Shown here in pieces: positions 1,410 to 41,608 of a stretch of DNA of 64,000 bases (positions are counted from its first letter, which is position 1; each line of letters starts with the position of its first letter). The stretch comes from an uncultured Pseudomonadales bacterium (GTDB lineage: Bacteria; Patescibacteriota; Microgenomatia; UBA1400; PJMF01): NCBI GenBank assembly GCA_964648715.1, contig CAZYNM010000002.1, forward strand, positions 25,056 to 89,055, read 5' to 3'. Under the pieces are notes generated by a model that was not told the DNA's origin, did no database searches, and saw only the letters and a program-made list of their open reading frames with translations. Made by a program: the position numbers and the translations under genes.

Positions 1410-1426
1410 AATAATAGGTGCTGCCC

Positions 1427-2611: not shown

Positions 2612-2641
2612 AAATAGCCAAATACACGGTATACTAAACGT

Positions 2642-3613: not shown

Positions 3614-3654
3614 GGCTTTGCTATTCGCTGTGTAGATAGGGTAAAATAGAAGTA

Positions 3655-7213: not shown

Positions 7214-7487
7214 AGGTTATGCACAGATGTGCATAACACTGTGCAGAACTACACAACAGCCTGTGAAAAAAAATAGTACTTATGCACTGCTTACACAGTT
7301 TTAAAAGTTGTTCACAAAATACTCCCCACATTGTGCACAGAGAAATACACAGATAGCACCAGGTCATATTCACAGGCTGTACACAGTAGTATTTCCAGAT
7401 GTATACTAGGGCATTCTCCACATTTTCCGACTGCCCTACTATTACTACAACTAATATATAGTAAGAAAAATAGAGAAAAGAACTTTC
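7202..7487. promoter_or_regulatory. oriC candidate (dnaA-dnaN intergenic): cluster of DnaA-box-like 9-mers plus AT-rich unwinding tract
   Basis: TTATGCACA at 7207..7215 and its inverted partner TGTGCATAA at 7218..7226 form a near-perfect palindrome TTATGCACAGATGTGCATAA. Further boxes: TGTGCAGAA at 7230..7238, TTATGCACT near 7280, TTGTTCACA near 7310, TTGTGCACA near 7332, TGTACACAG near 7378. AT-rich stretch ACTAATATATAGTAAGAAAAATAGAGAAAAG immediately upstream of dnaN. Confidence 0.6.
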
Positions 7488-8594
7488 ATGCAATTTCATA
7501 TACAACAAAAAGAATTAGAGCGTGCATTGAACTTCCTCCAAAAGGCAATTCCTGCTCGTCCACAATTGCCAGTACTTTCTGCTCTGCTCATTACCACTAC
7601 GAAAGATACGTGTAGTATTGCCGCAACAGATCTGTATTTTGGAGTACGGGTAACTATGCCAATTACTGAATCACAAGAGGGTTCTGTAGCTGTTCCGGGG
7701 AAAGAGTTCAGAGAACTTATTCAGTCTTTGCCTTCAACTGCAACTGTACAACTCACCTTGAATGAGAATACAGTGACTCTAACTGCTGGAAAGATTAGAT
7801 GCACGTTACAATGCCTGGATAGTAAAGATTATCCAGCTTTTCCAGAACTATCTGGTGAGACCATCTCACTCAGTAGTACATTACTTCAACAAGTTGTTAA
7901 GTATGTAACCCAAAGCACTTCGCTAGATCAAGCACGCCCGCTGCTAACTGGTATTCTCTTCTCTTTTTCTGATAGCACAGTCCGTTGTGTAGGAACAGAT
8001 GGCTTTCGTCTGTCTATTCTTGATGCTGAAAGTATGAGCTCTTATGCAGAATCATTTATATTGCCAGCCAAGACCCTTGCAGAAGCTGTTAGAATCATTG
8101 ACCAGTTATCAGTTTCAGAGGCTGTTTTGACCATCTCCAAGACCCTTAAACAAGTGTATTGCACAGCAGAGGGGGTTGAGATTTTTATGCGTTTGCTAGA
8201 AGGTGAATATCCTCCGTACCAAAAAATAATCCCTGTTACTCATGCTACAGAGCTAGTTGTGTCTGCAGAAGTTCTTATAGAACAAGTGAAACGGGCACTA
8301 ATCTACTCGCGAGATTCTTCAAGCGTGATTACTTTTTCTATAACAGAGCAACACTGCAGTATCTCAGCAACATCTTCCACTCTAGGTAACTACCATGCAG
8401 AAGTAGAAGAAGCTCAAGTAAAAGGTACTGATGTTACTATCTCATTTAAAGCAAAGTACTTGCTCGATTTTTTAAGTACAGTTCCTGATTCAGATATCTG
8501 GATGGGAATGAACGAAAGTCTCAAACCTGTGCTCTTCAAAGCACAAAAAGTGTCGAACCTCCAGTATGTTGTTATGCCCTTCCGAGTAACGTAA
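7488..8594 (+). CDS. dnaN: DNA polymerase III beta subunit (sliding clamp)
   Basis: MQFHIQQKELERALNFLQKAIPARPQLPVLSALLITT...; three-domain length of 368 aa; canonical position after dnaA. Confidence 0.9.
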   Translation: MQFHIQQKELERALNFLQKAIPARPQLPVLSALLITTTKDTCSIAATDLYFGVRVTMPITESQEGSVAVPGKEFRELIQSLPSTATVQLTLNENTVTLTAGKIRCTLQCLDSKDYPAFPELSGETISLSSTLLQQVVKYVTQSTSLDQARPLLTGILFSFSDSTVRCVGTDGFRLSILDAESMSSYAESFILPAKTLAEAVRIIDQLSVSEAVLTISKTLKQVYCTAEGVEIFMRLLEGEYPPYQKIIPVTHATELVVSAEVLIEQVKRALIYSRDSSSVITFSITEQHCSISATSSTLGNYHAEVEEAQVKGTDVTISFKAKYLLDFLSTVPDSDIWMGMNESLKPVLFKAQKVSNLQYVVMPFRVT

Positions 8595-10956: not shown

Positions 10957-13875
10957 ATGTCTCACTTTAACGTAACTACTGAAGTATACGAGCACACCAT
11001 ACCGGTTGTTATTTTTGATGAAAAAAGCATTCTCTCAGAAGAAATTCAGAAAGGATTAGCGCATTATCCTACCAGTATTTCTTGTTTAGAAGTATGGTCA
11101 GCAAAAATAGACTATGTAAAAATGTTGGAATCTGCATATAAAATTGTATGTGTTATCCACCCACAACAGTTTTCTGAAGAACAAATAACTCTTCTTAAAG
11201 AACTGGGCCCCTATCAGGAAAGCGTTGTTCTGGTTATTCCCATTTTTAGTGTTTTTTCACAAGAAATAGTGGGTGAAATTCCTCGACTTGAAGATGCATA
11301 TTACCAACAAAAATCTTGTATTGAGCTATGTAATACACTATTACCTCGTGCTACCTGTATCTTCATTAAAGACATGATATCCAAGCCAGGTACTGGCACA
11401 ATCCTTGATTATTTCTTTCAAAGTTTACAGGCAGACTTTGCCTTTATACCTACAGCAACCATGACGCTAGTTTCAAAAGAGCTTGCGATAGATACAGTTG
11501 TTCGTGAACTACTCAGACCTGAAAGAACCAGTAGCTGCATTCAGGGGCAAAAAAAAAGCTGTGAACAAGCCATAAAAAAAATTGCTTTTTTCTACGATCA
11601 ATATCATAGACACGACACAACCTTCCAAGTAGTGAAAGGACAAGAAGCTGCAAGCATACCTTTTAGCGTAAAGACGGTTGTCTTGAAAGAAAGCTTTGAA
11701 GATGTGTGTAGAACATATAGCCAAGAATTGCCAGCCCCTTCCCTCCTTCCTTTTGAGCTCCTCAAATCATCGGTAGATCTATCTCAAAGACACAGTAGTT
11801 TACCGGAAGAACAGCAAGTAGATGCAGTAATAACGCATGAAGAGTTGTCAGATGATTTTCAACAAACTGTATCTGGTAATGAGTTTGAACAAACTGAGCA
11901 AAAGGCAGCTCTACTGGATTCCATCCCCACTGAACAACAATTTGATTTGCAATCTGAACTGCAAAAGATATTTATTCCCAGTCGGAAAGAACAAAAGCGC
12001 GAACGAGTAGCTCAAGTACTTACAACTGTGCATACGATTGAAAAGAAAAAGAAAAAAAGAGCAGCACTATTTTATGGTGGGCTGGTATTTACCTTGGCGG
12101 GCGTTTGCGCTGGTGTTGCTAGTTGTATTTTTATTGTTTCATCTCACTTATACACACAAGTACTAGAAGATTATCTCTCTGCGCTGCTTACCGATAAACC
12201 AATCTCACAATCACTTACCAAAAAAGTTGAATTTTTCTCTGGAATTGTAAGTAAGCAAGTTGATATTTACACAACACTTTTTGAACTTCCTGCACTTGAT
12301 GAAGCAAAACACCTTCTCACCTTGCCAGCAGAAGCACGAGAAGTTTCTCTAAAAAAAAGAGAAAAAAATGAACGCCTTTTATTACTTATAAAAAGTATTC
12401 TCGGTAAGAGTGCGTCAGTATCTATTCATGACGAAATTGCGGCACTTGAAGGGCTAGAAAACCCAGAAAAAAACTACCAGTTCAATAGTGCTGTTCAGGT
12501 ACTTACTTTATCAGAGGAAGCACAAAAATCGCTTAAAGAGAAATTTAGCGGTGCCCAAGATACTTCAAAACAAGAAGAAAAGACTCTGCAGTTTGTGCAA
12601 ACAGCAGCACCATCCCTTTTTGGAGAGTCTTCTGAAAAGGTGTATGCGATTATTCTTCAAAATAATCAAGAATTACGACCTACCGGTGGTTTTATGGAAG
12701 CTGTTGCTTTGGCACATTTTAAGAATGGCTCACTCACGGATGTTCCTGTGTATTCATCGTATGAAATTGACAAAAAGTTACCCGGAGAAATTCCCGCACC
12801 AGCCGAGATAGCTCATTATACAGGAGAAAAAAGACTCACATTTTTTGAGACAAATTGGGAGCCAGACCTTCCAACGTCAGCTGAAAAGATACGCTTTTAT
12901 CTTCAAAAAAGTCTGGGAGTATCTGTGGATGGAGTTCTCACTCTAGACTTGTACGCTCTGCAACATATTCTTGAAGTGACTGGACCACTTGATGTTCCAG
13001 AACACAATGAAGTGATCACCAGCAAAAACATTTTTGAACGTATGGAAGCACACTCAGAAGTGGTGTTAATTCCCACCGCTGAACGCCGTGAGTATCGAGT
13101 GTTGATACTAGAAAAAATCTTAGAAAAAATGAGAACATTATCAGACGAAAAAATGATTCCACTTTTATCTGCTTTGCTCACTAATCTCTCAACCAGATCT
13201 CAACTGTTTACTACTTTTGACGCTGAAACTCAGGCTGGTTTGCAAAATCTTGGCTGGACCGGAAGTGTGATCTCTCCACCCTGCCCTACCGAGTTCCAAG
13301 ATCCTTGTCTGGTTGATACATTCTTAAACGTTGAAACAAATGTTGGTGTTAATAAAGCCAATGCTTCAATTCACCGCACAAGCACACACCGTATTGAGTT
13401 AACGGGAACAACAGTAGTACATACACACCTTCTTGAATTAACAAATACAGCTCTGTCTGGTGCCTGGCCAAAAGGTCCTTACAAGGTTTTCATGAGGACA
13501 TACTTGCCCTCCTCTGCTCGCTCAGTGCAAGTTGCTGTTGATAGCTCTCCTCTGCCCGCTACACAAATACAAATTGCTTCTGCATATGGCAAGAAAGTAG
13601 TGGCTTTCGCCTCCGAAGTCCCTTTGGCTTCTACAAAAAAGATAAGTATCTCCTACACAATCGATGCACCGTTACATGATTCAAGTTATGTTTTTGCCCT
13701 GCAAAAACAGGCCGGTTTATCTCAAGAGGCTGTTGCTGTCACTGTTTCTGTTCACCCTTCTCTTTCTCCGCAACTTATCACTCCAATAACTGACGTGATT
13801 GAACATGTGTATACCTTTCCTCCTCAAATAAAGCCCGTTGAGGTGTACGGATTCCAGTTCCATCAAGCAAAATAA
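10957..13875 (+). CDS. Large envelope protein with a DUF4012-like domain (single internal TM helix)
   Basis: 972 aa. TM helix AALFYGGLVFTLAGVCAGVASCIFIVSS around aa 365. Downstream motif QNNQELRPTGGFMEAVALAHFKNGSL matches the conserved RPTGGF core that I recall for DUF4012; the domain name is from memory. Confidence 0.45.
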   Translation: MSHFNVTTEVYEHTIPVVIFDEKSILSEEIQKGLAHYPTSISCLEVWSAKIDYVKMLESAYKIVCVIHPQQFSEEQITLLKELGPYQESVVLVIPIFSVFSQEIVGEIPRLEDAYYQQKSCIELCNTLLPRATCIFIKDMISKPGTGTILDYFFQSLQADFAFIPTATMTLVSKELAIDTVVRELLRPERTSSCIQGQKKSCEQAIKKIAFFYDQYHRHDTTFQVVKGQEAASIPFSVKTVVLKESFEDVCRTYSQELPAPSLLPFELLKSSVDLSQRHSSLPEEQQVDAVITHEELSDDFQQTVSGNEFEQTEQKAALLDSIPTEQQFDLQSELQKIFIPSRKEQKRERVAQVLTTVHTIEKKKKKRAALFYGGLVFTLAGVCAGVASCIFIVSSHLYTQVLEDYLSALLTDKPISQSLTKKVEFFSGIVSKQVDIYTTLFELPALDEAKHLLTLPAEAREVSLKKREKNERLLLLIKSILGKSASVSIHDEIAALEGLENPEKNYQFNSAVQVLTLSEEAQKSLKEKFSGAQDTSKQEEKTLQFVQTAAPSLFGESSEKVYAIILQNNQELRPTGGFMEAVALAHFKNGSLTDVPVYSSYEIDKKLPGEIPAPAEIAHYTGEKRLTFFETNWEPDLPTSAEKIRFYLQKSLGVSVDGVLTLDLYALQHILEVTGPLDVPEHNEVITSKNIFERMEAHSEVVLIPTAERREYRVLILEKILEKMRTLSDEKMIPLLSALLTNLSTRSQLFTTFDAETQAGLQNLGWTGSVISPPCPTEFQDPCLVDTFLNVETNVGVNKANASIHRTSTHRIELTGTTVVHTHLLELTNTALSGAWPKGPYKVFMRTYLPSSARSVQVAVDSSPLPATQIQIASAYGKKVVAFASEVPLASTKKISISYTIDAPLHDSSYVFALQKQAGLSQEAVAVTVSVHPSLSPQLITPITDVIEHVYTFPPQIKPVEVYGFQFHQAK

Positions 13876-15114: not shown

Positions 15115-17352
15115 TTATCCTGCCCAGGATGAAGTAATCAAAAATTCTTCACTTACCAGTCCAATAGTCTTTAATTCCTGCCAGACTGCTTCGGTTACAA
15201 AAGGAATAAAAGGGTGTAATAACCTGAGGAAGGTAATTAAAATCTGTGTTGTCGCTTGTGAAGAAATGGTGCCTGCTTTTTGTGCTTCAATACACTCATC
15301 ACAAAACCAATGCCAAAATTCGTTATAGAGCGTATCCGCTACTAAACCAACCTTGTGCTCAGTCATGTTCTCTGTGACTTCTTTAACGATAGTGTTCAGT
15401 TTAGTCAATGCTGCAGCGTCACCCGTATGTGGAGCAGAATCAGCTTCATTTTTCTGATTCTCTAATATACAAAATCGACTCGCATTCCACACTTTGTTGG
15501 CAAAATTACGCGCTGCTTTGAAATCCTGTTCTCCCACTGACTTGTCTTGACCTGGGGTAGAGCGAATGATAAGCGCTAGTCGTAGCGCGTCTGCGCCATA
15601 TTTTTCTACAATAGCCAAGGGATTAATCACATTTCCTTTGCTTTTACTCATTTTTTGACCTTTTTCATCACGAACTAACCCATGCAGATACACATCACTA
15701 AAAGGTGCTTTGTCGGTGAGGTAGATGCTCATGAGCATCATACGCATCACCCAAAAGGGCAAAATATCATACCCAGTTTCCATAACTGAAGTAGGGTAGA
15801 AACGTTCAAAATCAGTGGGTTTCCCCGTTTTCAATGTTACAACAGGCCATTGTGCAGAAGAAAACCAAGTATCAAAGGTATCTGTCTCTGGTAAATACTG
15901 CTTGTTTGTTTGTGGTGCTTTTACAGAAATAGAGTAGGGGACATCGTTATCTGCAAAAAGTTGTTGCAAACCGCTGATTACATCTGAAAGTGTGTGCGTG
16001 TGCAGAATGTCGGACAACACTCCTTGTTTGAGTTCTTGATCTTTGGTTATGAACGAAACAGTTATCTTATCCTCATATCCTTCTACTTCGTACCATACAG
16101 GAATACGAATGCCCCACACAATTTGTCTGCTAATGTTCCAATCCTTGAGGTTTTCTAGCCAATGACGCAGAATCTTTTCCCTACCTGCTCCCAAGACTCG
16201 CGTCTCTCCAGAATCAAGTGCGCTAAGTGCAGCTCGGGTTAAGCTTTTATGAGAATCATTTACTTTGATAAAAAACTGAGGGAGTGGAAGTGGCTCTAAA
16301 ACACGACCACAACGATAACATGTTCCAATTCTATTTTGGTATGTTGTATCAATTTTTTCTATACAACCTTTTGTAGTAAGATCTGCCACAACTGCTTCAC
16401 GAGCAGCCTTCGTTGAAAGTCCGGTATACACACCTGCCTGAGAGGTCATCTTACCTCTTCTATCCACGGCTACAATAATGGGCAGACCATGCTTTTTAGC
16501 AACAGCAAAGTCATTGAAGTCATGTGCTGGTGTTAGCTTCACAATGCCAGTTCCAAACTCTTGATCAACAAACTCGTCTGCAATTATTTGCATTGGTGCG
16601 TCAGTTAAGGGATTCTTAACTTTTTTACCAATGAGATGCTTCGTCTTGGCGTTATCGGGATGAACAGCTAGATGTGTGTCTGCCCAGATGGGCTCAGGAC
16701 GCGTAGTAGCTAGTGTAATATACTGGGTTGGAGCGTCTACAAAGAAGTATTTTATGTAATACAACTGTGTGGTTTGGTCAATGTGATTTACTTCAAGTTC
16801 AGAAAAAGAGGTACCACAGTTCACGCAAAAATTTACCAACTGTAAGTCTCGGTAAACAAGTTTGTCTGCAGCTAATTTTTTAAATGTATCAGTAACATAG
16901 GCAATTACATCGTCATCAAGCGTAAAGGTAAAACGGCTCCAATCTGCACTTGCTCCAAGTTTTTTTATTTGATTGACCGCAATATCTGAATTTTCTTTTA
17001 CATAGGACATAATGTTGTTAAAAAGCGTTTGGCGATCAAAGTCAAATCGTGACTGATTATTCTTCTTTAATTTCTTCTCGTACACAAACTGTGTTTCAAT
17101 ACCCGCATGATCTGTACCCGGTATCCACACTGTGGCATCACCAACCATACGATGAAATCGTGTTAATGCGTCTTCGATAGAAACAAACATTGCATGACCA
17201 ATGTGAAGAGGATCATTGGCATTAGGTGGTGGCATAATAATACAGAATGTTTTTCCTGTTCGTGCATGTGCAACAGGTGCGAAACAACCAGCCTGTTCCC
17301 AGGATGTATAGATGTGTGTTTCTTGTGAGATATGCTCAAAGCGAGATTCCAT
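15115..17352 (-). CDS. valS: Valyl-tRNA synthetase (compact form)
   Basis: Class I motifs: PPPNANDPLHIGHA (ValRS-type PPPNxxGxLHxGHA) and KMSKSKGNVI. At 745 aa it is shorter than proteobacterial ValRS; the C-terminal coiled-coil is presumably absent. Confidence 0.85.
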   Translation of the reverse strand: MESRFEHISQETHIYTSWEQAGCFAPVAHARTGKTFCIIMPPPNANDPLHIGHAMFVSIEDALTRFHRMVGDATVWIPGTDHAGIETQFVYEKKLKKNNQSRFDFDRQTLFNNIMSYVKENSDIAVNQIKKLGASADWSRFTFTLDDDVIAYVTDTFKKLAADKLVYRDLQLVNFCVNCGTSFSELEVNHIDQTTQLYYIKYFFVDAPTQYITLATTRPEPIWADTHLAVHPDNAKTKHLIGKKVKNPLTDAPMQIIADEFVDQEFGTGIVKLTPAHDFNDFAVAKKHGLPIIVAVDRRGKMTSQAGVYTGLSTKAAREAVVADLTTKGCIEKIDTTYQNRIGTCYRCGRVLEPLPLPQFFIKVNDSHKSLTRAALSALDSGETRVLGAGREKILRHWLENLKDWNISRQIVWGIRIPVWYEVEGYEDKITVSFITKDQELKQGVLSDILHTHTLSDVISGLQQLFADNDVPYSISVKAPQTNKQYLPETDTFDTWFSSAQWPVVTLKTGKPTDFERFYPTSVMETGYDILPFWVMRMMLMSIYLTDKAPFSDVYLHGLVRDEKGQKMSKSKGNVINPLAIVEKYGADALRLALIIRSTPGQDKSVGEQDFKAARNFANKVWNASRFCILENQKNEADSAPHTGDAAALTKLNTIVKEVTENMTEHKVGLVADTLYNEFWHWFCDECIEAQKAGTISSQATTQILITFLRLLHPFIPFVTEAVWQELKTIGLVSEEFLITSSWAG

Positions 17353-17365
17353 AGGCGATAGTATA

Positions 17366-17842
17366 TCACCTGAGAGCCTTGTAGAGCGATTTTATTTCGT
17401 CAGAAAGGAGGAGCACAGCAGGTACGATAATAGTCAGTATGAAACCCCATGGCGTTCGTATGAACTGTACAACGTACCCAAATTTTGGGATGACAAGTAT
17501 AACGGTGCCTACTATTTGTGAAAGTGAAATCGTTTCGGTATCTGGAGTTTGATTGGCATCACCCTTGGTGGTGTAGCTGGGCGGTTGGGTTGTTCGTACA
17601 GCAGTAATGCGGTGTGTGATGGTGTGTTTGTTTTCATCCTTAAACGTTATGACTTCATTAAGTTGGTATGAATTGTGTTTTGCAATGATAATAATATCTC
17701 CCACACGTATTGTGGGTTCCATAGAACCAGATTGCACGACATAGCTTTTAAAAGGAGTATGTGTGCGGAAAAAGCGAACTGCTGCATACGTTGTAACTCC
17801 GGCTAAAATGGCAATAAAAAGTAAGAACAGAAATTGACGCAT
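17366..17842 (-). CDS. sipW: Signal peptidase I, SipW/archaeal-eukaryotic type (S26), copy 1
   Basis: N-terminal TM helix then VVQSGSMEPTIRVGDIIII (Ser nucleophile in the SGSMEP context typical of SipW/Sec11-type SPases); 158 aa. Confidence 0.8.
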   Translation of the reverse strand: MRQFLFLLFIAILAGVTTYAAVRFFRTHTPFKSYVVQSGSMEPTIRVGDIIIIAKHNSYQLNEVITFKDENKHTITHRITAVRTTQPPSYTTKGDANQTPDTETISLSQIVGTVILVIPKFGYVVQFIRTPWGFILTIIVPAVLLLSDEIKSLYKALR

Positions 17843-17848
17843 AGCTAA

Positions 17849-18517
17849 CTATTCTTGAGTTGGTGATGAGGTTGCCCCGGGCAGTACTTGTCTCAGTTGG
17901 AAGGTAGTTGCAAAAGTGACACTGTCACTTTGTACCTCGTTCTCAAAATGGCTTTCTGCGACAGACCAAGAAAGCTCTACTGTTTTTGTTTCACCCGGTG
18001 GAATTATCACCTTTCCAGCTTTTTCCTGCCACAGTTGTGCAAATGTTTCACTTCCTTGAGTGCTTAGTATATGGCTAAAAAGTGTGGTAGATGAGCCGCC
18101 ATCTTTAAGTGAAACTGTGGTAGTGATGTGCTGGCCAAGTTCACCTTGATTGTCACCTGGGTCAGCACAAGTGGTATCAACCAGCGCCTCGGGTTCATTA
18201 CAACCGTTTTCAAGGTTGTGGATATTTGTTACCGCAAAATGCAGTTCACCTGGTAGTGTACCTACGTTTTTGATGTTCCATCGTTTTCCACCGTTTGTGA
18301 TATGTTGCGCACCTATGCCTTGTACTGTAAGGGTATCAGCTTGAGTAGAGGATTCTCCGCTCACAGTCATGTCTAGTGTACCCACTACAAATTGATTTTC
18401 ACCAGAAGTCTCTCGATCAATAAAAAGAGCTTGGGTGGTCATAAAGCCTACTACGGCAATCACAGAAAAAATAAAAACACTCTTTACTGCTATCAATGAA
18501 TGACTCTTTTTTTTCAT
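17849..18517 (-). CDS. TasA/camelysin-like secreted protein with SipW-cognate class signal peptide, copy 1
   Basis: MKKKSHSLIAVKSVFIFSVIAVVGFMTTQALFIDRETSGENQFVVGTLDMTVSG fits the AxFxDxExSxxNxFxxGTLD(L/M) signature of SipW-dependent signal peptides. ATG at 18517 preferred; the track ORF starts at a GTG at 18526. Confidence 0.7.
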   Translation of the reverse strand: MKKKSHSLIAVKSVFIFSVIAVVGFMTTQALFIDRETSGENQFVVGTLDMTVSGESSTQADTLTVQGIGAQHITNGGKRWNIKNVGTLPGELHFAVTNIHNLENGCNEPEALVDTTCADPGDNQGELGQHITTTVSLKDGGSSTTLFSHILSTQGSETFAQLWQEKAGKVIIPPGETKTVELSWSVAESHFENEVQSDSVTFATTFQLRQVLPGATSSPTQE

Positions 18518-18540
18518 GCTCCACACATCATTGTCTCATT

Positions 18541-19194
18541 TTACTGCTGGTGCGTCCATGCACCCGTCGTTACTGTGTTTTGTAGTACTTCAGTATCGGA
18601 AAAGTGATCTTCTTCTGTTCGTTGTGTTGAAAAATCAAAAGCAAAGTGACAACTGCTATTCATAAGTTCAGACTCACTTCCTGGTAGCTCAAGAGCAAAG
18701 ACATAATCAAGTGCTGCGCTACCACTAGGAAGAACATCTGAAAAGTGTGCTTCAAGTAGAGGACCACTATAGACTGCTGCCCAATTCTTGAATATTTTAA
18801 GTTGTAAATTGACACACACTGCAGCTGTGCCACCTGTCTGGCGCGTGGAAAGGGTAAATGGTGTGCTCTGCTGCCCGGTATTTTTTATTCTCACGCTTTC
18901 TACTGCTAATCCTGTATATTTCATGTCAGAAATGGAGAAGAGGAGTGAAGTATCTTGTTCTGTTGCCGAGTTTAATTGGGAAAAGTCGAGTGTTGTTGCT
19001 TGCAGAGAGTGTGGGCTAACAACTTCTTCATCAAATAAATCCGCGTCAGTGAAATCGGAATAGCCAGCAAATAATGCTGTAATGAAAATGACAAGTAGGA
19101 GGAAACGTACTCCGTGCTTCACCGTATCTTTATGTACTTGTACGTTGTTTCTTAAATACTTCAGATGCAGCAATGACAACAAGTGGAGTGACAA
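18541..19194 (-). CDS. Third SipW-cognate-signal protein (TapA-like accessory or minor subunit?)
   Basis: ...KHGVRFLLLVIFITALFAGYSDFTDADLFDEEVVSPHSLQATTLDFSQ has h-region + ALF + acidic + TLD(F) like the two TasA-like proteins. Start uncertain: TTG at 19194 (overlaps sipW-2 by 65 nt) or GTG at 19122 (gives M-K-H-G-V-R + hydrophobic core, no overlap). Confidence 0.45.
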   Translation of the reverse strand: MSLHLLSLLHLKYLRNNVQVHKDTVKHGVRFLLLVIFITALFAGYSDFTDADLFDEEVVSPHSLQATTLDFSQLNSATEQDTSLLFSISDMKYTGLAVESVRIKNTGQQSTPFTLSTRQTGGTAAVCVNLQLKIFKNWAAVYSGPLLEAHFSDVLPSGSAALDYVFALELPGSESELMNSSCHFAFDFSTQRTEEDHFSDTEVLQNTVTTGAWTHQQ

Positions 19195-19630
19195 TTAGGA
19201 TGAAAACACCTGGTCTACTACTGGCGTATAAAAGAACCTTTCCAATTTTTGGAATTGAAAATAGTAGCTTTCCAATAACTTTATCTTGAGACACAGGATC
19301 AACATCTTTGGTTTTATTGTTATCACCCTTGGTTGTATAGGAGAAAGCGTCCGTGGTTTTTTTCTCGATAATCCTGTGCGTAATGACAGAGTCTTTTGTT
19401 CCTCTAAAGGTAATGACATCATGTACTGCATACTCCGGTGCTTCACGAGTAAAAATTACGTCGCCCGGTGTGAGCATAGGAAGCATAGAGCCTGTTGTGA
19501 CGATGAAACTGCGAAAAGGTAATCCACTTGATTGTCGTGCAGATGCACCAATTAAAAGAGATGCAATTGCATAGCTACAGTACACAATCCAAAAAAGTAT
19601 TTGTGCCAAGTGAAGTAAAGCATGTTTCAT
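19130..19630 (-). CDS. sipW: Signal peptidase I, SipW type (S26), copy 2
   Basis: TM helix then IVTTGSMLPMLTPGDVIFT; 166 aa; paralogous to 17366..17842. Confidence 0.8.
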   Translation of the reverse strand: MKHALLHLAQILFWIVYCSYAIASLLIGASARQSSGLPFRSFIVTTGSMLPMLTPGDVIFTREAPEYAVHDVITFRGTKDSVITHRIIEKKTTDAFSYTTKGDNNKTKDVDPVSQDKVIGKLLFSIPKIGKVLLYASSRPGVFILIVTPLVVIAASEVFKKQRTST

Positions 19631-19697
19631 TGTTTCTTTCCTTTAACGCAAAGAGGAGGGGACACCCCTCCTCATATGCGTTTAGTGTTCGTTAGTA

Positions 19698-20342
19698 TTA
19701 AGATGGTGTTACTTGTGTTAGGTCGAACTGAACTCCAAAAGTGAGACTGTCACTTTGAATTTCATTGCCATATGAAGAAGGATCGTTGGCCCAGTTCATC
19801 TTAACTTTAACTTGGCCGCCAGCTGGAATTGTGACTGTACCTGCATTTGTGCCCCATTGTGTGGCGTATTGAGGTTGGTTGGCAGTTGCTAGATTTGCTG
19901 AGACGACTGTTTGATATGTCTCACTAGATCCAGCACCATCTTTATCAAGTTGCACAGTTGTTGCTACTGCGTTACCAAGTTCTCCCTCGCCATTGCCGGG
20001 GGTACTGCACGTTGTATCAACAATAGCTTCTGGCTCATTGCAGCCATTTTCTGTATTGGTAAGAGAGTTAAGTCTGAAGGTTAAAGTTCCTGGCACGGTT
20101 CCAGAATTTCGAATAACCCACTCTTTTTCTCCAGAAACTGTTCCATCAACACCAATGTTATTAACTGCAATAGTGTCAAAAGCCGTTCCGTTGTTACCAT
20201 CAACAGTCATATCTAATGTACCAGCAGTAAGTGCGTTTGTCCCTGAAGTTTCTGTATCACTGAACAGAGCTTGCGTGAGCGCATAGCCACCTCCAATAAG
20301 TGATGCAGTTACCAGAAGAAAGAGCAGAATTTTTTTCTTCAT
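19698..20342 (-). CDS. TasA/camelysin-like secreted protein with SipW-cognate class signal peptide, copy 2
   Basis: MKKKILLFLLVTASLIGGGYALTQALFSDTETSGTNALTAGTLDMTVDG. Shares a conserved core with copy 1 (NGCNEPEAIVDTTCSTPGNGEGELG versus NGCNEPEALVDTTCADPGDNQGELG). Confidence 0.7.
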   Translation of the reverse strand: MKKKILLFLLVTASLIGGGYALTQALFSDTETSGTNALTAGTLDMTVDGNNGTAFDTIAVNNIGVDGTVSGEKEWVIRNSGTVPGTLTFRLNSLTNTENGCNEPEAIVDTTCSTPGNGEGELGNAVATTVQLDKDGAGSSETYQTVVSANLATANQPQYATQWGTNAGTVTIPAGGQVKVKMNWANDPSSYGNEIQSDSLTFGVQFDLTQVTPS

Positions 20343-20611
20343 ATTTCCTTTTATATTTTTGTACTAGTACGCTTTCCTATACTTTTATTTTTACTGCTTT
20401 ATATCTGTGTATCGCATGTTTCTTTGATGCATACATGATGCACATTGGTATTTGGCTTTGTTATGCATAAAATGGAATTGTCTGTCTATTTTTGATGTTT
20501 ATTACACTGATTGATAATAAAAAATATATGACAATAACACTGCAACTCATCTAGCATACGTACTATGAGTGACAGCGTCAACTGAATACAAAATGATCAA
20601 AGATACACAAT

Positions 20612-21691
20612 CTATTCTTGGGATGATGAATCACGTTTTTTTCTCCAGAAGAGAAAAAAGAAAAGCCACAATAGTGCAACAAAACAAAAAACAGCATAAA
20701 GCAATATAATTGATCTCTTTGCACTAGATGCATTCCTGTACTCTTGCTTTATTGGTTGAGGTACCGTAGTGGTAGCGCCTAAAACAATACCACTTTGGGT
20801 AGCTGGTGTTGCTGAGGGGAGTGATTGATGATGTTCTGCTTTTTCTTTAGCAAGAACAGTGAGAAGTACGGGTTCGCTCATGCCACACCTATTACTTGAG
20901 CGTATGTCCACTCTATGTGTCTCTGTAGTAGAGAGTCCCGCTACATCCCAGTGAGAAGCGTGTTCAACCTGAATGTTGTCAAACTGCTTATTTGTCTCTA
21001 GCGCATGGATGGTAATGTGATAAGTAACAGCAGGCTGCGTTGTCCAACTTATACGGAGTTTTTTCTCTTTCCACACAGCTGTAACATCTGTGGGTGAGAT
21101 TGGAATAACGCAGTGCGGGGGGGGACTTGCAGTTGGCACTGGGGAGGAAGTTGGCAGTGCTGTAGGTGGAAGGGGAGCGTGAAAATCTGGACCACACATT
21201 GTATGAAAGGTAAAGAAAAACGATGTTGTTTTGTTTTGATATGTGTTATCTGCATTTTGTGGAAATAGTATTTGCCACGTTGTGTGTGCGACTGCGTTGG
21301 GATTAACAATAAGGAGTGTTGTAGGGGTTGAGCGAGAAAATAACGTTGCTAGAAGTACTGGGGTAACTAATTGTTGTGGATATGCAGCTTGGTAAAGTGA
21401 CAGCTGTAGAACAGTGGCGAGCTCCTGCGAGGTTCCCTCTGTGGGGTGTGTCTGGAATGAAACTGAACAGCCATATCGTGGATGGGTATTGTGAAACACG
21501 ACTTCTTTAGAAAGAATGGTCCCCGGAACAAAGCTTGTTTGTGAAAACAGTACTGGTTGCTCTGGAACAGTTTTGCAATCTGATTCACCATCACACACAA
21601 TCTTGACCTCTTCAGCATCCGCGAGCGTTTCCTCAGGAATGCTAAGAAAAAGTATAGAAAAAAGTAACAAAAGAAGAAGGGTTTTTTTCAC
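20612..21691 (-). CDS. Secreted surface protein: signal peptide, Cys-containing extracellular domain, C-terminal TM anchor with basic tail
   Basis: MKKTLLLLLLFSILFLSIPEETLA...; C-terminus IILLYAVFCFVALLWLFFFLFWRKKRDSSSQE. GTG start. No LPXTG seen before the anchor. Confidence 0.5.
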   Translation of the reverse strand: MKKTLLLLLLFSILFLSIPEETLADAEEVKIVCDGESDCKTVPEQPVLFSQTSFVPGTILSKEVVFHNTHPRYGCSVSFQTHPTEGTSQELATVLQLSLYQAAYPQQLVTPVLLATLFSRSTPTTLLIVNPNAVAHTTWQILFPQNADNTYQNKTTSFFFTFHTMCGPDFHAPLPPTALPTSSPVPTASPPPHCVIPISPTDVTAVWKEKKLRISWTTQPAVTYHITIHALETNKQFDNIQVEHASHWDVAGLSTTETHRVDIRSSNRCGMSEPVLLTVLAKEKAEHHQSLPSATPATQSGIVLGATTTVPQPIKQEYRNASSAKRSIILLYAVFCFVALLWLFFFLFWRKKRDSSSQE

Positions 21692-21700
21692 AAAGTACAG

Positions 21701-23443
21701 TTATACACCCTTTAAGTACTTTGCTGCCCATGGTCGATACTTGGACACGTAGATATCCTCTCTGATAACAGAACCGTTTTTGTCCTTTATCACGTTCTTA
21801 AAACTGGCATCAATTCCTGGTGCAGCCCAATCAACTTGTACAATCTTTCCTGGTGGTAGTGTTGGGTCTGGAATATACTGTGGTGGGAGAGCAGGACGTG
21901 CATTCCACGTTTTATGATCTACAATTTCTGTAGTCCTACCATCTGAGGTTCCATAGAGTTCCACGTACATAGCAAGTTTCTTACTATCTGCCTGTGCATA
22001 GACTAAAATATGGTGATCAGTATCATTGATAAATCTAAAATCAGTTTCACCAGAATAGACAGTCGCGTCAACTCCTGGCTTTCTATCAAGTTCGTAGTAA
22101 CTTACACGATAGCTGTGTGGCAATCTTCGAGTAACATGTAAACCAGCATTTAAAACGGATCGAAAGAGCGTTGTGCTTACTTGACATACCCCACCACCGT
22201 CACCAAGTGTTGTTTGCCCATTCTTAATAACATAGGCAGATTTATATCCAGTTTGTGCAGAAACATCGCCTACTGTTTTATTAAAAGAGAACTCCTCACC
22301 AGGCTTAACTATATGGAGGCTGATACGTTCTGTAGTAAGGGCAACGTTATGAACTCTATTGGGTATGGAGTGGGCATAGTAACTTTCGCCAAAACCAATG
22401 CGTTCTGCAATTCCAAGGTCATTAGTTTCAGCAAGTCCTTTGGTGGGGGGAGTAAATACAAGCTTGAGATCAAGTACAGTTTCCTTAGCTGTTAGGGGTG
22501 TTAGTGAATGTATGTATGTCATCAATGCTTCTTGTAAAGCTAAAAGTGATAGCTTTCGTCCATCACGAGGTGGTGTGAACGAAGTGACCACCAATGTCTG
22601 GGGATTATAGGTAAACTCTGCTTCTATCGGATCTGTCTCTACTTGCTTTTGCCAAAGGGCGATTTCTTTTTCAAAAGCAGCAGGAATGATCTGTGCATCT
22701 GGGTCTACCAATGAAATGAGTGTTTGATCAGTAAGCGTATGTGAAAACCGTTCAGCTTTCAAAATAATGCTTTTACCTACAAGGCGTGTATACATTTCTT
22801 TTGCTGCTTGTAGTTGTAACTCTGTCAGTACTTTCCCAGTAGGTTCAAGGACTGGAGTAATACGGGCAGATTTCCCTTCATGTAATGAAATGAGTGTGTT
22901 GAGTGTTTTATCCTCCTGCAGCTCAGCGCCTTGTGTACCTGCATCAATGATAAGACTTTGGAGAGAGCCAGAGGTTTTGAGGACTGCTTTGGGAAGTGTG
23001 GGCATTCGATCAACTTGTTTTTTAAAAACACTTACAAATTCTCGACTGCGTTCTTCATTATAAATAGTCTTTACTGGTAGATCATGCTCTTGAAAGAAAA
23101 ATTGATAACTCTGCCAGATTTTCTGTAGACTCAATGGTGCCTGATGTATCGCTTCAAACTGGTCAATAATTTCATTGGTTGTGTAACGAGCCCCCAGTTC
23201 TGCAGAACTCGAAGCAAGTGTGGCGTCTTCATAGGAAAGAGTCAATACATGTGGCGGTACTTCTGAAAAGTGAGTGCTCAATAGGATTTGCGCAGCGCTT
23301 GGTGAAAGGAGCCCAATATTGACTCCACCAACCAATGTTCGAATAGGAAGATGTGTGCTTGTAATCTGGTAGCCAAGTACTCCAGCAATGAGTGCCAGCA
23401 TAGTTGCTTTAATAGGCAGTGGTACTTGAGGGAAATGTCGCAT
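21701..23443 (-). CDS. VanW family protein
   Basis: N-terminal TM helix. C-terminal region FSFNKTVGDVSAQTGYKSAYVIKNGQTTLGDGGGVCQVSTTLFRSVLNAGLHVTRRLPHSYRVSYYE matches the VanW core (GGGVCQVSSTLYxAxLxAGL). Confidence 0.75.
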   Translation of the reverse strand: MRHFPQVPLPIKATMLALIAGVLGYQITSTHLPIRTLVGGVNIGLLSPSAAQILLSTHFSEVPPHVLTLSYEDATLASSSAELGARYTTNEIIDQFEAIHQAPLSLQKIWQSYQFFFQEHDLPVKTIYNEERSREFVSVFKKQVDRMPTLPKAVLKTSGSLQSLIIDAGTQGAELQEDKTLNTLISLHEGKSARITPVLEPTGKVLTELQLQAAKEMYTRLVGKSIILKAERFSHTLTDQTLISLVDPDAQIIPAAFEKEIALWQKQVETDPIEAEFTYNPQTLVVTSFTPPRDGRKLSLLALQEALMTYIHSLTPLTAKETVLDLKLVFTPPTKGLAETNDLGIAERIGFGESYYAHSIPNRVHNVALTTERISLHIVKPGEEFSFNKTVGDVSAQTGYKSAYVIKNGQTTLGDGGGVCQVSTTLFRSVLNAGLHVTRRLPHSYRVSYYELDRKPGVDATVYSGETDFRFINDTDHHILVYAQADSKKLAMYVELYGTSDGRTTEIVDHKTWNARPALPPQYIPDPTLPPGKIVQVDWAAPGIDASFKNVIKDKNGSVIREDIYVSKYRPWAAKYLKGV

Positions 23444-29880: not shown

Positions 29881-32019
29881 CTACTTTTTATTTGCAGCGT
29901 AACGCTCACGACTTACTTTAACCACTTTATCTTTGTTTTTATTGCTACTCTTTGCCAGAGGGAGTGTCTCGGCTGGGAAGGGCTCCGAGATCATGTTGTT
30001 GATGGTAATTTTATTGACTATTTGATGTTTACCTAATGAAACAAGTTCATCTGCTGTGTAGCGGTTGTTAAATTCACGAGCCAGAACACCTGCATCCTCA
30101 GATCCAGTGACAAAGCTCACTATACTACCACAGTTGCCGAAAATTGCTTTTTGTACATCTTCTGGAATCTGTCCCATATATTGGTTAGCAAGAATAAGGT
30201 CAAGACGATACTTACGTGCTTCAGATAGAATCTTGGTAAATGATTCGGTTGCGAAGTTCTGGAACTCGTCTACGTACAAATAAAAATCGCGCCGTTCCTC
30301 TTCAGGAATATGAACACGAGCCATAGCAGCAAGCTGAATCTTGGTGATAAGCATGGCTCCTAGCAGTGTCGCATTATCTTCTCCCAACTTGCCTTGTGAT
30401 AGGTTGACCAAGATAATCTTGCCGGTATCCATCGCTTCTTCAATACTAAACGAACTATAGCGCGAATTGACCACATCACGAACCAATGGAGAGGAAACAA
30501 ACTGTCCCACTTTATTTAAGATAGGAGCAATTGCCTCGGTGCGTAACTTCTCTTGCATGGTGTCAAACTCTTGTTCCCAGAAATTCTTGAGAATATCATC
30601 ATCAAGTTGGGCAACCAGTTTTTGACGGAATGACTTGTTGGTAAGCATCTCAATAATGTCCGACAAGCGCGCTGTCTCACTCTTAAGGAGGGTTAGTAGT
30701 GCATTGCGTAGAATGTACTCAAGCCTAGGTCCCCAGGAGTAGGCATATAACTTGCGAAAAACAGACACGATACCAGATGCAATAAGTTCACGATGCACAA
30801 TATTAGTTCCCTCAAAGAGGTTTATCTGAACTGTTTTTTCTGGATCGCTGGGATCAAAGTAAATGACGTCATTAATACGACGTGAGGGAATATAGTTAAG
30901 GAGTGTCTCAACTAAATCGCCATGAGGATCAATCACACACATCCCCTCATCATTCTTTAAGTCACTGATAGCCATGTTGGCCAATAGAGTAGATTTACCG
31001 GTGCCGGTTTTTCCGATTACGTACATATGACGTCGTCTATCAACACGATGAACACCATACACATTTGCCACGTTCTTATAAATTGTTCTAGCAAAGGCAT
31101 TAATGTCTTTTTTCTGTTCCGCAGGAGTTTGAGCGGTGATCACAGGGAGATTCTCTGGTGGTTCACCCAGTAACTTTCTGCCCCAGGCAATGTTGGGAAT
31201 ACTAGCAATAACTGGAGTAGGGAGATGAAACATCGTGGCCAACTCATCAACCGAAAAATGTTGGGTGTCAAACAGGCCAAATGACCGATCGAGTATTTTT
31301 TGTTTAAGCAGCTCGGGAAAGAAATATGCTCGTTTCAAACTCAGCGAATTGCTTTCACTTTTAGTGATTCCTTGGAATGTTTGTGCGATTGTCTCGAGCA
31401 AATGGACGCTTCTGTGTTTTGTTTCTGCACCCACAAGTATCCGCAGGGCAACATCACACGATTGCTGGTTCCGTTTCATATCTATGAGTGCTTGTTGGGG
31501 ATGTGGTGTAGAGGAAGTAGAGAGTGCAGAAGAAGGAAAATAGTGACTTGGTCTACTAATTACATACTGAATCACTGCATGATCTTGTGCCCTTAATTGT
31601 GAGAGTGTTGCTATAAGTGGCATGAGTGGATCTGTCTGTGAGAAGTCTTTGTATGTTTTGAGCGGCAGAGCGGAGCCGTTTGAAAGCACCATGGTTCCAA
31701 CTGTGTACTCTCTTGGTTGTCCAGTAGCTGAAGTAAAGAGAGGATCGTGATCAAGTTTGGTGACATGCACATCCGGGTATGCAGCAGTGAGAATACTAAT
31801 AGTGTAATCAGCTACTCTCTCTGGACAATATAAAACAAAGCTAATCCGCTGTTCTTTGACATGAATCTCAAGACTCATATGTTCAAAACGCTGCAGAAGG
31901 TGATCCCACCAATAGTTGTGTAGATCTGGAAGCGTAGAGATAAACTGAATTATTGCCTCTGAGGTGTATGTGTTCGTTTTGGACACTTTAAGCTCGTATG
32001 CTACATGGCTTACTGACAT
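29881..32019 (-). CDS. P-loop NTPase of the FtsK/HerA/TraG-VirD4 (AAA-like, DUF87-type) superfamily; possible type IV coupling-protein-like ATPase
   Basis: Walker A MYVIGKTGTGKSTLLANM; Walker B DFYLYVDEFQNFAT; 712 aa with no N-terminal TM helices. Family assignment is approximate. Confidence 0.5.
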   Translation of the reverse strand: MSVSHVAYELKVSKTNTYTSEAIIQFISTLPDLHNYWWDHLLQRFEHMSLEIHVKEQRISFVLYCPERVADYTISILTAAYPDVHVTKLDHDPLFTSATGQPREYTVGTMVLSNGSALPLKTYKDFSQTDPLMPLIATLSQLRAQDHAVIQYVISRPSHYFPSSALSTSSTPHPQQALIDMKRNQQSCDVALRILVGAETKHRSVHLLETIAQTFQGITKSESNSLSLKRAYFFPELLKQKILDRSFGLFDTQHFSVDELATMFHLPTPVIASIPNIAWGRKLLGEPPENLPVITAQTPAEQKKDINAFARTIYKNVANVYGVHRVDRRRHMYVIGKTGTGKSTLLANMAISDLKNDEGMCVIDPHGDLVETLLNYIPSRRINDVIYFDPSDPEKTVQINLFEGTNIVHRELIASGIVSVFRKLYAYSWGPRLEYILRNALLTLLKSETARLSDIIEMLTNKSFRQKLVAQLDDDILKNFWEQEFDTMQEKLRTEAIAPILNKVGQFVSSPLVRDVVNSRYSSFSIEEAMDTGKIILVNLSQGKLGEDNATLLGAMLITKIQLAAMARVHIPEEERRDFYLYVDEFQNFATESFTKILSEARKYRLDLILANQYMGQIPEDVQKAIFGNCGSIVSFVTGSEDAGVLAREFNNRYTADELVSLGKHQIVNKITINNMISEPFPAETLPLAKSSNKNKDKVVKVSRERYAANKK

Positions 32020-32546: not shown

Positions 32547-33299
32547 ATGTCGTTAGTTCTTGCAACCCATGGACAGCTCCTCCAAACGAACTTTCCTAGA
32601 GTACGTAATCGTCTTGTTGGTGTACGTTTGGCAGGACTTCCACAAAGAAGTGCGACAATTAAAAAATTAAAAGCGTATAGCATTGTTGTTCTACGCTTTG
32701 TTTTATTTTCCATTATTATCACCGCATGTCTCGTTATTGGTAGTTTGGTTATACCTGAGTTAAGCAGTCGTCTGTTCTCAGACACCCAAGAAGGGGTTTT
32801 TGTACAGGCGGGTGAGCAACATGTAGAACCCAGTACTGCTCAAGTAAAAAAACCTATTGAGCGTCCTGTTGATGCAACACTGCCACAGGGGACATGGATC
32901 CGCATTCCGTCAATAGGGGTCAATACTCAAGCGAGACCTTTGCAGAATGCAGATGAAGCGCTGGCCGAAGGTGCGTGGATGGTCCCTGATTTTGGCAGAC
33001 CAGGAGACGAGACACAACCAACTATTATGGCTGCGCATCGATATGGCTGGAAGTGGTGGTGGCAAAGTGACTATTGGAAGCTAAACTCATTTTATCTGCT
33101 CACCGAAACAAAACCAGGAGACACAATTGAGGTTGTGTCTGATCAAAAGAAGTATATATACGAGATTTATGCCAGTGGGGAAGGTGAAGAGATAACCGAC
33201 TACTCAGCAGACTTAATCTTATACACCTGTAAGTTTATGAACTCTCCAATTCGCTATTTTAGATATGCCAAACTACACCCCTATGTGGACGCAGTTTAG
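32547..33299 (+). CDS. Sortase-family transpeptidase (membrane-anchored)
   Basis: N-terminal TM helix, then TWIRIPSIGVNTQARPLQ...TIMAAHRYGW...LILYTC: conserved sortase His (AHR) and catalytic Cys (YTC) contexts. Confidence 0.7.
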   Translation: MSLVLATHGQLLQTNFPRVRNRLVGVRLAGLPQRSATIKKLKAYSIVVLRFVLFSIIITACLVIGSLVIPELSSRLFSDTQEGVFVQAGEQHVEPSTAQVKKPIERPVDATLPQGTWIRIPSIGVNTQARPLQNADEALAEGAWMVPDFGRPGDETQPTIMAAHRYGWKWWWQSDYWKLNSFYLLTETKPGDTIEVVSDQKKYIYEIYASGEGEEITDYSADLILYTCKFMNSPIRYFRYAKLHPYVDAV

Positions 33300-41585: not shown

Positions 41586-41608
41586 ACAAAATGTGCTACA
41601 ACTATAGT

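What the first reader, a model, noticed from the sequence alone, without database searches (positions are those of the whole stretch)
17366..20342. Tandemly duplicated SipW-type signal peptidase / TasA-like fibre-protein modules
Two paralogous pairs in one co-directional minus-strand block. Each pair has a SipW/Sec11-type signal peptidase I (SGSMEP / TGSMLP motif) directly downstream of a ~215-225-aa secreted protein. The N-terminus of each secreted protein matches the SipW-cognate signal-peptide class (…QALFSDTETSGTNALTAGTLDM… / …QALFIDRETSGENQFVVGTLDM…) and they share a conserved Cys-containing core. In Bacillus this peptidase-substrate pairing builds TasA biofilm fibres. In archaea the same signal class marks surface filament proteins. 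A dedicated, duplicated SipW-TasA system next to valS in a reduced genome suggests a second filament system alongside the type IV pili. I am not aware of this being described for this kind of organism.
Basis: partly seen in the sequence, partly recalled or inferred. Interest (0 to 1): 0.7.

Follow-up and report, generated by a model that had tools for sequence, protein, structure and literature searches.

The report
TasA-type fibre operon in a Patescibacterium
This ultra-small bacterium carries a conserved gene cassette for a Bacillus-TasA-like surface fibre: two fibre subunits, two dedicated signal peptidases, an overlooked starter/tip protein and a likely membrane anchor; the protein family was already known in this phylum, but this layout has not been described.

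Summary
Both peptidases are Sec11/SipW-type: they pass TIGR02228, keep the Ser/His/Asp catalytic residues and match human SEC11 best. Both about-215-aa proteins are TasA/camelysin-family jelly rolls with SipW-style signals.

The reading as two tandemly duplicated pairs is wrong in three ways.
- A third conserved gene (18541-19122) lies between the pairs. It has the same signal class and a TasA-like N-terminal half. It also has a late strand that copies the TasA donor strand and changes together with it across genomes.
- In 79 related loci the conserved cassette is TasA–SipW–third protein–[optional TasA2]–SipW. The two peptidases are old, distinct paralogues.
- The upstream 359-aa protein has a TasA-like domain without a donor strand, followed by fn3 and a C-terminal membrane anchor.

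My best model is a donor-strand-exchange fibre. The third protein would act as a TapA-like starter or tip, TasA1 and TasA2 as shaft, and the 359-aa protein as anchor. This is inferred, not shown.

TasA homologues in Patescibacteria were already reported (Wang et al. 2022), and NCBI names relatives accordingly. I rate this a new variant of a known kind, of moderate interest.

The parts
20612..21691 (-). 359-aa accessory protein ('P359'). It has an ordinary signal peptide and a Cys-containing N-domain homologous to the TasA/third-protein core but without the FxDxE...GTLD donor-strand segment. A Pro-rich linker, an fn3-like domain, a conserved VLGxQ motif, a C-terminal TM helix and a basic tail follow. 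Proposed role: membrane anchor or terminal acceptor.
   Evidence: Family found in 15 of 79 related loci. hhalign of the N-domain gives prob 93% (E 2.9e-7, P359 44-165 to TasA 53-209) against the TasA family, and prob 95% (E 1.9e-8) against the third-protein family. fn3 is detected in 7 of 14 members. TM segments at 1-23 and 324-351. A shallower profile comparison was not significant.
19698..20342 (-). TasA-like subunit 1 (214 aa), the probable major fibre subunit. Signal peptide, predicted SipW cleavage after TQA, donor-strand-like LFSDTETSGTNALTAGTLD, then a jelly-roll core with an invariant GCNEPE...C loop.
19653..19673 (-). GC-rich hairpin (9 bp, 7 GC) followed by TTTGCGTT, between TasA1 and SipW-a. 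Probably a terminator or attenuator that gives an excess of the major subunit.
   Evidence: A stable hairpin (z < -2 against shuffles) occupies the same intergenic position in 47 of 58 related loci, with different sequences.
19130..19630 (-). SipW-a, a Sec11/SipW-type signal peptidase I (166 aa) with N- and C-terminal TM helices.
   Evidence: TIGR02228 90.4 bits against cut-off 51.85. Best PDB hit SEC11C, E 2e-5. In the 'a' group Ser (SM), His (THR) and Asp (GDxN) are conserved in 75 of 75 members. TM segments.
18541..19122 (-). Signal peptide, predicted cleavage after TDA, donor-strand-like DLFDEEVVSPHSLQATTLDF, a small β-sandwich with two invariant Cys, and a terminal strand HFSDTEVLQNTVTTGAW that copies the TasA1 donor strand. 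Proposed role: TapA-like initiator or tip subunit.
17849..18517 (-). TasA-like subunit 2 (222 aa from the ATG used in the NCBI call; the ORF list starts 3 codons earlier at GTG 18526).
   Evidence: 46% identical to TasA1. PF12389 15.8 bits, below GA. TIGR04088 15.7 bits, below the cut-off of 19. A second TasA in this position is present in L001-L016 (absent in L009) and in two more distant loci, L032 and L039.
17366..17842 (-). SipW-b, the second Sec11/SipW-type signal peptidase I (158 aa) with N- and C-terminal TM helices.
   Evidence: TIGR02228 103.4 bits. SEC11C E 1e-4, with the SGSMEP, HR and KGDxN motifs aligned. Catalytic residues conserved in 55-56 of 57 'b' members. A paralogue group distinct from SipW-a.

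Best explanation
The block 17366-21691 (minus strand) encodes a TasA-type, donor-strand-exchange surface fibre system of a Microgenomates-group Patescibacterium.

Shown:
- Two Sec11/SipW-type signal peptidases with intact Ser/His/Asp catalytic residues.
- Two TasA/camelysin-family jelly-roll proteins with SipW-style signals.
- A third conserved protein whose N-terminal half (signal, donor-like strand, first β-strands) is homologous to TasA.
- An upstream membrane-anchored protein with a TasA-like domain that lacks the donor-strand motif.
- Gene order conserved across about 75 related genomes.

Inferred, by analogy with B. subtilis TasA/TapA/SipW (Böhning 2022; Roske 2023):
- The SipW enzymes cut after TQA or TDA and expose the segment (L/D)-x-F-x-D-x-E...GTLD. 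This segment would act as the donor β-strand that fills the open groove of the next subunit.
- TasA1 is the major shaft subunit, because a conserved hairpin follows its gene. TasA2 is a second shaft subunit.
- The third protein is a TapA-like initiator or tip. Its own sandwich is completed in cis by a late strand that is a copy of the donor strand, so it can donate but not accept. In relatives this module is followed by LTD, CBM96 or fn3 domains, as expected for an adhesin-bearing end subunit.
- The 359-aa protein has a groove domain but no donor strand, a stalk and a C-terminal TM helix. It is a candidate acceptor-only anchor that ties the other fibre end to the cell.

Why two peptidases are kept is unresolved.
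For: - Family assignments.
- Cassette: TasA–SipW–third–[TasA2]–SipW is conserved in 79 loci.
- Third protein against TasA profile: prob 96%.
- P359 N-domain: prob 93% against TasA and 95% against the third protein.
- Concerted change of residues +4 and +6 in the TasA N-terminus, the third protein's N-terminus and its late strand: (D,E) in all three in 19 loci and (A,R) in all three in 20 loci, plus a smaller group with K or R at +6. Same-locus against shuffled-locus z = 7.4-9.1. In 137 representatives at 50% or less identity, the N and C segments agree at +4 in 105 and disagree in 4.
- Long relatives place LTD, CBM96 or fn3 domains after the module.
- A hairpin follows the major subunit gene in 47 of 58 loci.
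- The signal motif is confined to these three proteins within the window.
Against: - There is no experimental or multimer-model evidence of polymerisation.
- The window's own TasA copies fall below the TIGR04088 cut-off (14.1 and 15.7 against 19), and TasA2 falls below the Pfam gathering threshold.
- The third-protein model is of modest quality (pLDDT 67), and its fold hits do not include TasA or TapA in the top 60.
- The concerted changes rest on only about 2-3 independent state changes. They could instead reflect shared recognition by the peptidase.
- P359 is found near the cassette in only 15 of 79 loci, and a shallower profile comparison was not significant (prob 3%).
- The role of the second peptidase is unexplained. 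A Shapirobacteria-like clade manages with one.
Confidence: 0.6

Rival explanations
1. The TasA-like proteins are secreted or cell-surface proteins that do not polymerise. They could be a monomeric coat, an adhesin or a camelysin-like protease. The SipW enzymes would then simply be the export peptidases for them.
Against: None of the 22 invariant columns in 69 homologues is a His, so an HExxH-type metal site is absent. The strongly conserved post-cleavage strand, its copy inside the third protein and the concerted changes are hard to explain for monomers. The hairpin-regulated major/minor gene layout resembles pilus operons.
Confidence: 0.2
2. One reading: a two-gene substrate+peptidase module was recently duplicated in tandem, giving two redundant TasA–SipW systems.
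For: There are two TasA-like and two SipW-like genes in alternating order. TasA1 and TasA2 are 46% identical.
Against: SipW-a and SipW-b are only 32-37% identical. They form separate position-specific groups across about 57 genomes. The second SipW is present in most loci that have a single TasA. A third conserved gene separates the 'pairs'.
Confidence: 0.07
3. The conserved FxDxE-type segments, including the late strand of the third protein, are recognition elements for the SipW peptidases rather than donor strands. They would act as substrate P' residues and as a pseudo-substrate or regulatory tail. The concerted changes would then track peptidase specificity.
For: The segments begin exactly at the predicted cleavage site, so positions +4 and +6 are P4' and P6'. 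Two co-encoded peptidases could impose specificity. The changes occurred in few events.
Against: The late strand is not preceded by a hydrophobic signal, and in long relatives it is internal and followed by folded domains. AF2 places it as a paired β-strand of the sandwich. In B. subtilis the same segment is the donor strand.
Confidence: 0.13

Closest known systems
Bacillus subtilis tapA–sipW–tasA operon (TasA biofilm fibres; Böhning et al. 2022, PMC9674648; Roske et al. 2023, PMC10151520)
   Same: - Major subunit of the PF12389 jelly-roll family.
- A dedicated Sec11/SipW-type peptidase encoded in the operon.
- A minor secreted protein that shares the SipW-type signal and a TasA-like N-terminal strand, but has its own complete, disulfide-containing Ig-like sandwich.
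- The same three-part gene content as the minimal cassette TasA–SipW–third protein.
   Different: - Gene order is tasA–sipW–third, not tapA–sipW–tasA.
- There are two peptidase paralogues and, in this clade, two TasA paralogues.
- The third protein has no detectable sequence match to any curated family (no Pfam or NCBIfam hit). Its N-terminal half is homologous to TasA, and it has a late strand copying the donor strand; I found no mention of such a strand for TapA in the papers read.
- There is an extra membrane-anchored, donor-less TasA-like protein.
- The host is a reduced-genome Patescibacterium.
Archaeal bundling pili AbpA/AbpB of Pyrobaculum calidifontis (Wang et al. 2022, PMC9245690)
   Different: No dedicated signal peptidase sits in the ABP operon. 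Sequence similarity to the window proteins is not detectable.
Chaperone–usher (type 1/P) pili and self-complemented pilin subunits
   Different: There is no usher or periplasmic chaperone, the cell is presumably monoderm, and the families are unrelated. The resemblance is functional and structural only.
Clostridium perfringens sipW–bsaA pilus-like biofilm fibres (preprint PMC11580942, listed; abstract only read)
   Same: From my own knowledge, this is a SipW-linked TasA-family matrix protein outside Bacillus.
   Different: BsaA polymers are reported to involve intermolecular isopeptide bonds and a type IV pilus-associated secretion route. Neither was tested here.

Membership tests
TasA/camelysin family (Pfam PF12389 Peptidase_M73) | Score at or above the Pfam gathering threshold (22.5 bits) | tested here: met
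   TasA1 scores 30.3 bits over residues 11-211. TasA2 scores only 15.8 bits but is 46% identical to TasA1. Many orthologues carry a precomputed PF12389 hit.
TasA/camelysin family (Pfam PF12389 Peptidase_M73) | Jelly-roll fold like TasA (PDB 5OF1/8AUR) | tested here: inconclusive
TasA/camelysin family (Pfam PF12389 Peptidase_M73) | Polymerisation by N-terminal donor-strand exchange | not testable with these tools
   There is only indirect support. The segment after the cleavage site is conserved and disordered in the monomer model, and it changes together with the strands of the third protein.
SipW-cognate signal peptide class (TIGR04088) | Score at or above the curated cut-off (19 bits) | tested here: not met
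   TasA1 14.1, TasA2 15.7, third protein no hit. The orthologues P0056 (22.9) and P0081 (27.8) pass. The window copies match at the right place but below threshold.
Archaeal/ER-type signal peptidase I (TIGR02228; SipW/Sec11 type) | Score above the curated cut-off (51.85), and better than the bacterial LepB-type model | tested here: met
   SipW-a 90.4 and SipW-b 103.4 bits. TIGR02227 (bacterial type) scores 20.3 and 33.3, below its cut-off of 47.
Archaeal/ER-type signal peptidase I (TIGR02228; SipW/Sec11 type) | Ser-His(-Asp) catalytic residues (SM..P, HR, GDxN) instead of a Ser-Lys dyad | tested here: met
   The motifs SGSMEP/TGSMLP, THR and KGDAN/KGDNN align with human SEC11C. They are conserved in 75 of 75 'a' and 55-56 of 57 'b' orthologues.
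Archaeal/ER-type signal peptidase I (TIGR02228; SipW/Sec11 type) | Extra C-terminal TM helix (as I recall it for B. subtilis SipW and archaeal enzymes) | tested here: met
   Hydrophobic segments at 10-31 and 137-160 in SipW-a, and at 1-25 and 130-151 in SipW-b.
Bacillus SipW orthologue (NF046067) | Equivalog cut-off of 190 bits | tested here: not met
   84.5 and 96.3 bits. They are the same type of enzyme, not orthologue-level members.
TapA (B. subtilis TasA anchoring/assembly protein) | Sequence membership in a curated TapA family | tested here: not met
TapA (B. subtilis TasA anchoring/assembly protein) | Functional hallmarks: a SipW-type signal, an N-terminus resembling the TasA donor strand, its own complete Ig-like fold with a disulfide, and a gene next to sipW | tested here: met
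   N-terminal homology to TasA, prob 96%. Two invariant Cys. An Ig-like sandwich with a paired last strand. The gene lies between the two sipW genes. Whether it nucleates TasA assembly is not testable here.

The most novel reading that the evidence does not exclude
Microgenomates-group Patescibacteria build a polar, three-part donor-strand-exchange fibre.
- A self-complemented, donor-only starter or tip subunit. Its cis strand is a co-evolving copy of the shaft donor strand, and in relatives it carries LTD or carbohydrate-binding adhesin domains.
- TasA-like shaft subunits.
- A donor-less TasA-like acceptor on an fn3 stalk, anchored in the membrane.

This would be a second attachment organelle, besides type IV pili, for contact with host cells or surfaces. 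Two specialised Sec11-type peptidases would control when each donor strand is released.
Probability: 0.3. Interest if true: 0.7.

Novelty: new variant of a known kind. Interest (0 to 1): 0.45.

Why it matters
Patescibacteria (the candidate phyla radiation) are thought to live attached to other cells. Type IV pili are the best-known appendage discussed for them. If this cassette does build fibres, they would have a second surface organelle.

The cassette is compact, widely conserved in Microgenomates and homologous to the Bacillus biofilm fibre system. It therefore gives concrete targets for cryo-ET, proteomics and heterologous assembly: subunits, cleavage sites, a candidate tip and a candidate anchor.

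The late strand of the third protein copies the donor strand and changes together with it. This is a natural experiment on how donor-strand systems make start or end subunits without a chaperone or usher. It could also inform the mechanism of TapA and TasA.

The basic claim, TasA- and SipW-like genes in this phylum, is not new.

Tried and rejected
- A profile of 69 TasA-like homologues against PDB sequences gave no hit at E<=1. Only fold comparison links them to TasA.
- The look-up of encoding contigs for the third protein found nothing on record.
- The first, shallow profile comparisons were weak: third protein against TasA prob 48%, P359 against TasA prob 3%. Only deeper alignments built from the 79 loci gave 93-96%. 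The P359 link therefore deserves caution.
- Promoter scan: sigma-70-like sites are fewer than in shuffles (12 against 19.1), so I claim no promoter.
- I considered a sortase-type sorting signal for P359, because of the conserved VLGxQ, TM helix and basic tail, with a sortase at 32547-33299. The motif lies about 20-30 residues before the TM helix, unlike LPXTG signals, so this is left as an observation.
- I considered a metalloprotease function. It is rejected for lack of conserved His ligands.
- valS linkage and VanW linkage are not conserved and are not treated as parts.
- There are no Rfam families in the window at gathering thresholds.
- Literature searches for TasA, camelysin or M73 in CPR/Patescibacteria found only the survey sentence in Wang et al. 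2022.
Full report
**1. What is there**

On the minus strand, read 5' to 3', the block contains the following genes:
- a VanW-like gene (21701-23443);
- a 359-aa gene, here called P359 (20612-21691);
- after a 269-nt gap, TasA-like 1 (19698-20342, 214 aa);
- SipW-a (19130-19630, 166 aa);
- TasA-like 2 (17849-18517, 222 aa);
- SipW-b (17366-17842, 158 aa);
- valS (15115-17352).

Gaps inside the block from SipW-a to valS are 6-22 nt. All of these products exist with these lengths in an NCBI record of a 122,837-bp contig. Each has conserved homologues, so these are real genes.

The window also holds dnaA/dnaN, yidC, type IV secretion genes, a sortase and type IV pilin-like genes. Homologues are labelled Pacebacteria, Woesebacteria, Shapirobacteria and Roizmanbacteria. 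The source is therefore a Microgenomates-group Patescibacterium.

**2. The peptidases**

Both pass the archaeal/ER-type signal peptidase model TIGR02228 (90.4 and 103.4 bits, cut-off 51.85). Both fail the bacterial LepB-type model. Their best solved relatives are human SEC11A/C, with the SGSMEP, HR and KGDxN motifs aligned; a LepB-type enzyme appears only at E 0.8. Each has an N-terminal and a C-terminal hydrophobic helix. The catalytic Ser, His and Asp are kept in essentially all orthologues of both copies.

**3. The TasA-like proteins**

TasA1 passes Pfam PF12389 (30.3 bits against 22.5). TasA2 is below threshold but 46% identical to TasA1.

The curated SipW-cognate signal model TIGR04088 matches the right residues but below its cut-off (14.1 and 15.7 against 19). 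Two orthologues pass. None of the 22 invariant columns is a His, which argues against a metalloprotease. Within the window the signal motif occurs only in TasA1, TasA2 and the missed gene, against 0.045 expected by chance.

**4. The missed third protein**

This is a conserved family: 643 clusters in the representative library, present in 75 of 79 related loci. It has an invariant TDADLFDxE...ATTLD after its signal peptide and two invariant Cys.

Its last strand, HFSDTEVLQNTVTTGAW, is nearly a copy of the TasA1 post-cleavage segment LFSDTETSGTNALTAGTL.

Across genomes, residues +4 and +6 switch together in three segments: the TasA N-terminus, the third protein's N-terminus and this late strand.
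- (D,E) in all three in 19 loci, and (A,R) in all three in 20 loci.
- A smaller clade has K or R at +6.
- Same-locus against shuffled-locus z is 7.4-9.1.
- In 137 representatives no more than 50% identical to each other, the N and C segments agree at +4 in 105 cases and disagree in 4.

These counts are not corrected for phylogeny and reflect perhaps 2-3 independent switches. In longer relatives the 'tail' is internal and is followed by Lamin-tail, CBM96 or fn3 domains. It is therefore a structural strand of the sandwich, not a free tail.

**5. The 359-aa protein**

This family is found near the cassette in 15 loci. The protein has, in order:
- an ordinary signal peptide;
- an N-domain homologous to the TasA core (prob 93%, aligned to TasA 53-209, that is, after the donor segment) and to the third protein (prob 95%);
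- a proline-rich linker;
- an fn3 domain (7 of 14 members);
- a conserved VLGxQ motif;
- a C-terminal TM helix with a basic tail.

A shallower comparison was not significant, so this link is the weakest one.

**6. Conserved anatomy**

In 79 loci the order is TasA–SipW–third–[TasA2]–SipW. A second TasA between the third gene and SipW-b occurs in the closest relatives (L001-L016) and in two more distant loci. A Shapirobacteria-like clade has only TasA–SipW–third.

SipW-a and SipW-b are separate, position-specific paralogue groups. In 127 of 132 cases the nearest neighbour from another locus holds the same position, and within-locus identity has a median of 32%. The block is therefore not a recent duplication of a two-gene module.

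A GC-rich hairpin follows TasA1 (19673-19653). A stable hairpin sits at the same place in 47 of 58 loci, with unrelated sequences. This fits the idea that the major subunit is made in excess.

**7. Mechanism (inferred)**

In B. subtilis the residues right after the SipW cut (28-38) are the donor strand that completes the next subunit. A monomer cannot extend its strand until its own groove is filled (PMC9674648). TapA starts the chain by donating its N-terminus. Its own disulfide-containing Ig fold is already complete, so it is not built in further (PMC10151520).

Mapping this onto the cassette gives the following roles:
- SipW-a and SipW-b release the strands.
- The third protein is the TapA-like starter or tip. 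It is donor-only, because its groove is filled in cis by the donor-strand copy.
- TasA1 and TasA2 form the shaft.
- P359, which has a groove domain but no donor strand and carries a membrane anchor, is a candidate acceptor-only end that fixes the fibre to the cell.

My confidence that this is a TasA/SipW/TapA-like system is high. Confidence that it makes fibres is moderate. Confidence in the tip and anchor assignment is low to moderate. The need for two peptidases is unexplained.

**8. Novelty**

Wang et al. 2022 already list Patescibacteria among the phyla with PF12389 homologues. NCBI names relatives 'TasA family protein' or 'SipW-dependent-type signal peptide-containing protein'. I found no paper that describes the cassette, the third protein, its donor-strand copy or the anchored donor-less paralogue.

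Verdict: a new variant of a known kind, interest about 0.45.

Noticed in passing
window 44432-60328 (-): A single 5298-aa ORF. Its N-terminal 1000 aa contain a phage-integrase SAM-like domain (residues about 89-165), and the C-terminal 999 aa have no Pfam hit. Giant proteins are typical of CPR genomes, but the integrase-like N-terminus is odd.
   Followed up: partly
window 20612-21691 (-), residues about 300-359, and relatives in alignment A5: A conserved (V/I)LG(A/S/T)Q motif lies about 20-30 residues before the C-terminal TM helix and basic tail of the P359 family. It resembles a sorting signal in layout but not in spacing. A sortase gene lies at 32547-33299.
   Followed up: partly
window 1418-5655 (+) and 29881-32019 (-): Conjugation-type type IV secretion components flank the dnaA/dnaN origin region (5744-8594): a PrgI-like protein, a VirB4/TraG-type P-loop ATPase and a TrwB/TraD-type coupling protein.
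   Followed up: no
window 41591-42142 (+) and 42565-43047 (+): Two small proteins with the N-terminal methylation (type IV pilin) motif.
   Followed up: no
window 60001-62000: GC content drops to 0.356 against 0.40-0.46 elsewhere, next to the start of the giant ORF and a 252-aa ORF without a Pfam hit (60864-61622).
   Followed up: no
window 10957-13875 (+): A 972-aa protein whose only recognisable part is DUF4012 (residues 560-697).
   Followed up: no
P0214-P0288 (relatives of the third protein), e.g. P0217, P0250, P0269, P0278: About 43 of the 149 best relatives other than the window's own protein are 270-1000 aa long. All ten that I scanned carry a Lamin Tail Domain after the module, some with CBM96, fn3 or Ig-like domains as well. 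P0242 looks like a SipW-like peptidase fused to the module.
   Followed up: partly
L019:5201-5770, L021, L026, L038, L047, L049 and others (13 loci): A family of about 189 aa, with no obvious signal peptide or hydrophobic segment, recurs next to the cassette in distant relatives. Members begin MK(V/I)(Y/F)FT and contain a conserved RFNFF(I/L)(S/T)P.LL.YL motif. It is absent from the window.
   Followed up: no
window 19698-20342 (-) residues 99-112, and all orthologues: An invariant N-x-C-N-E-P-E...C loop, a likely disulfide-bridged acidic loop. In the AF2 model it has lower confidence than the core (pLDDT 61-73). I do not recall an equivalent loop in B. subtilis TasA. Its function is unknown; it may bind a metal or form a contact site.
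   Followed up: no
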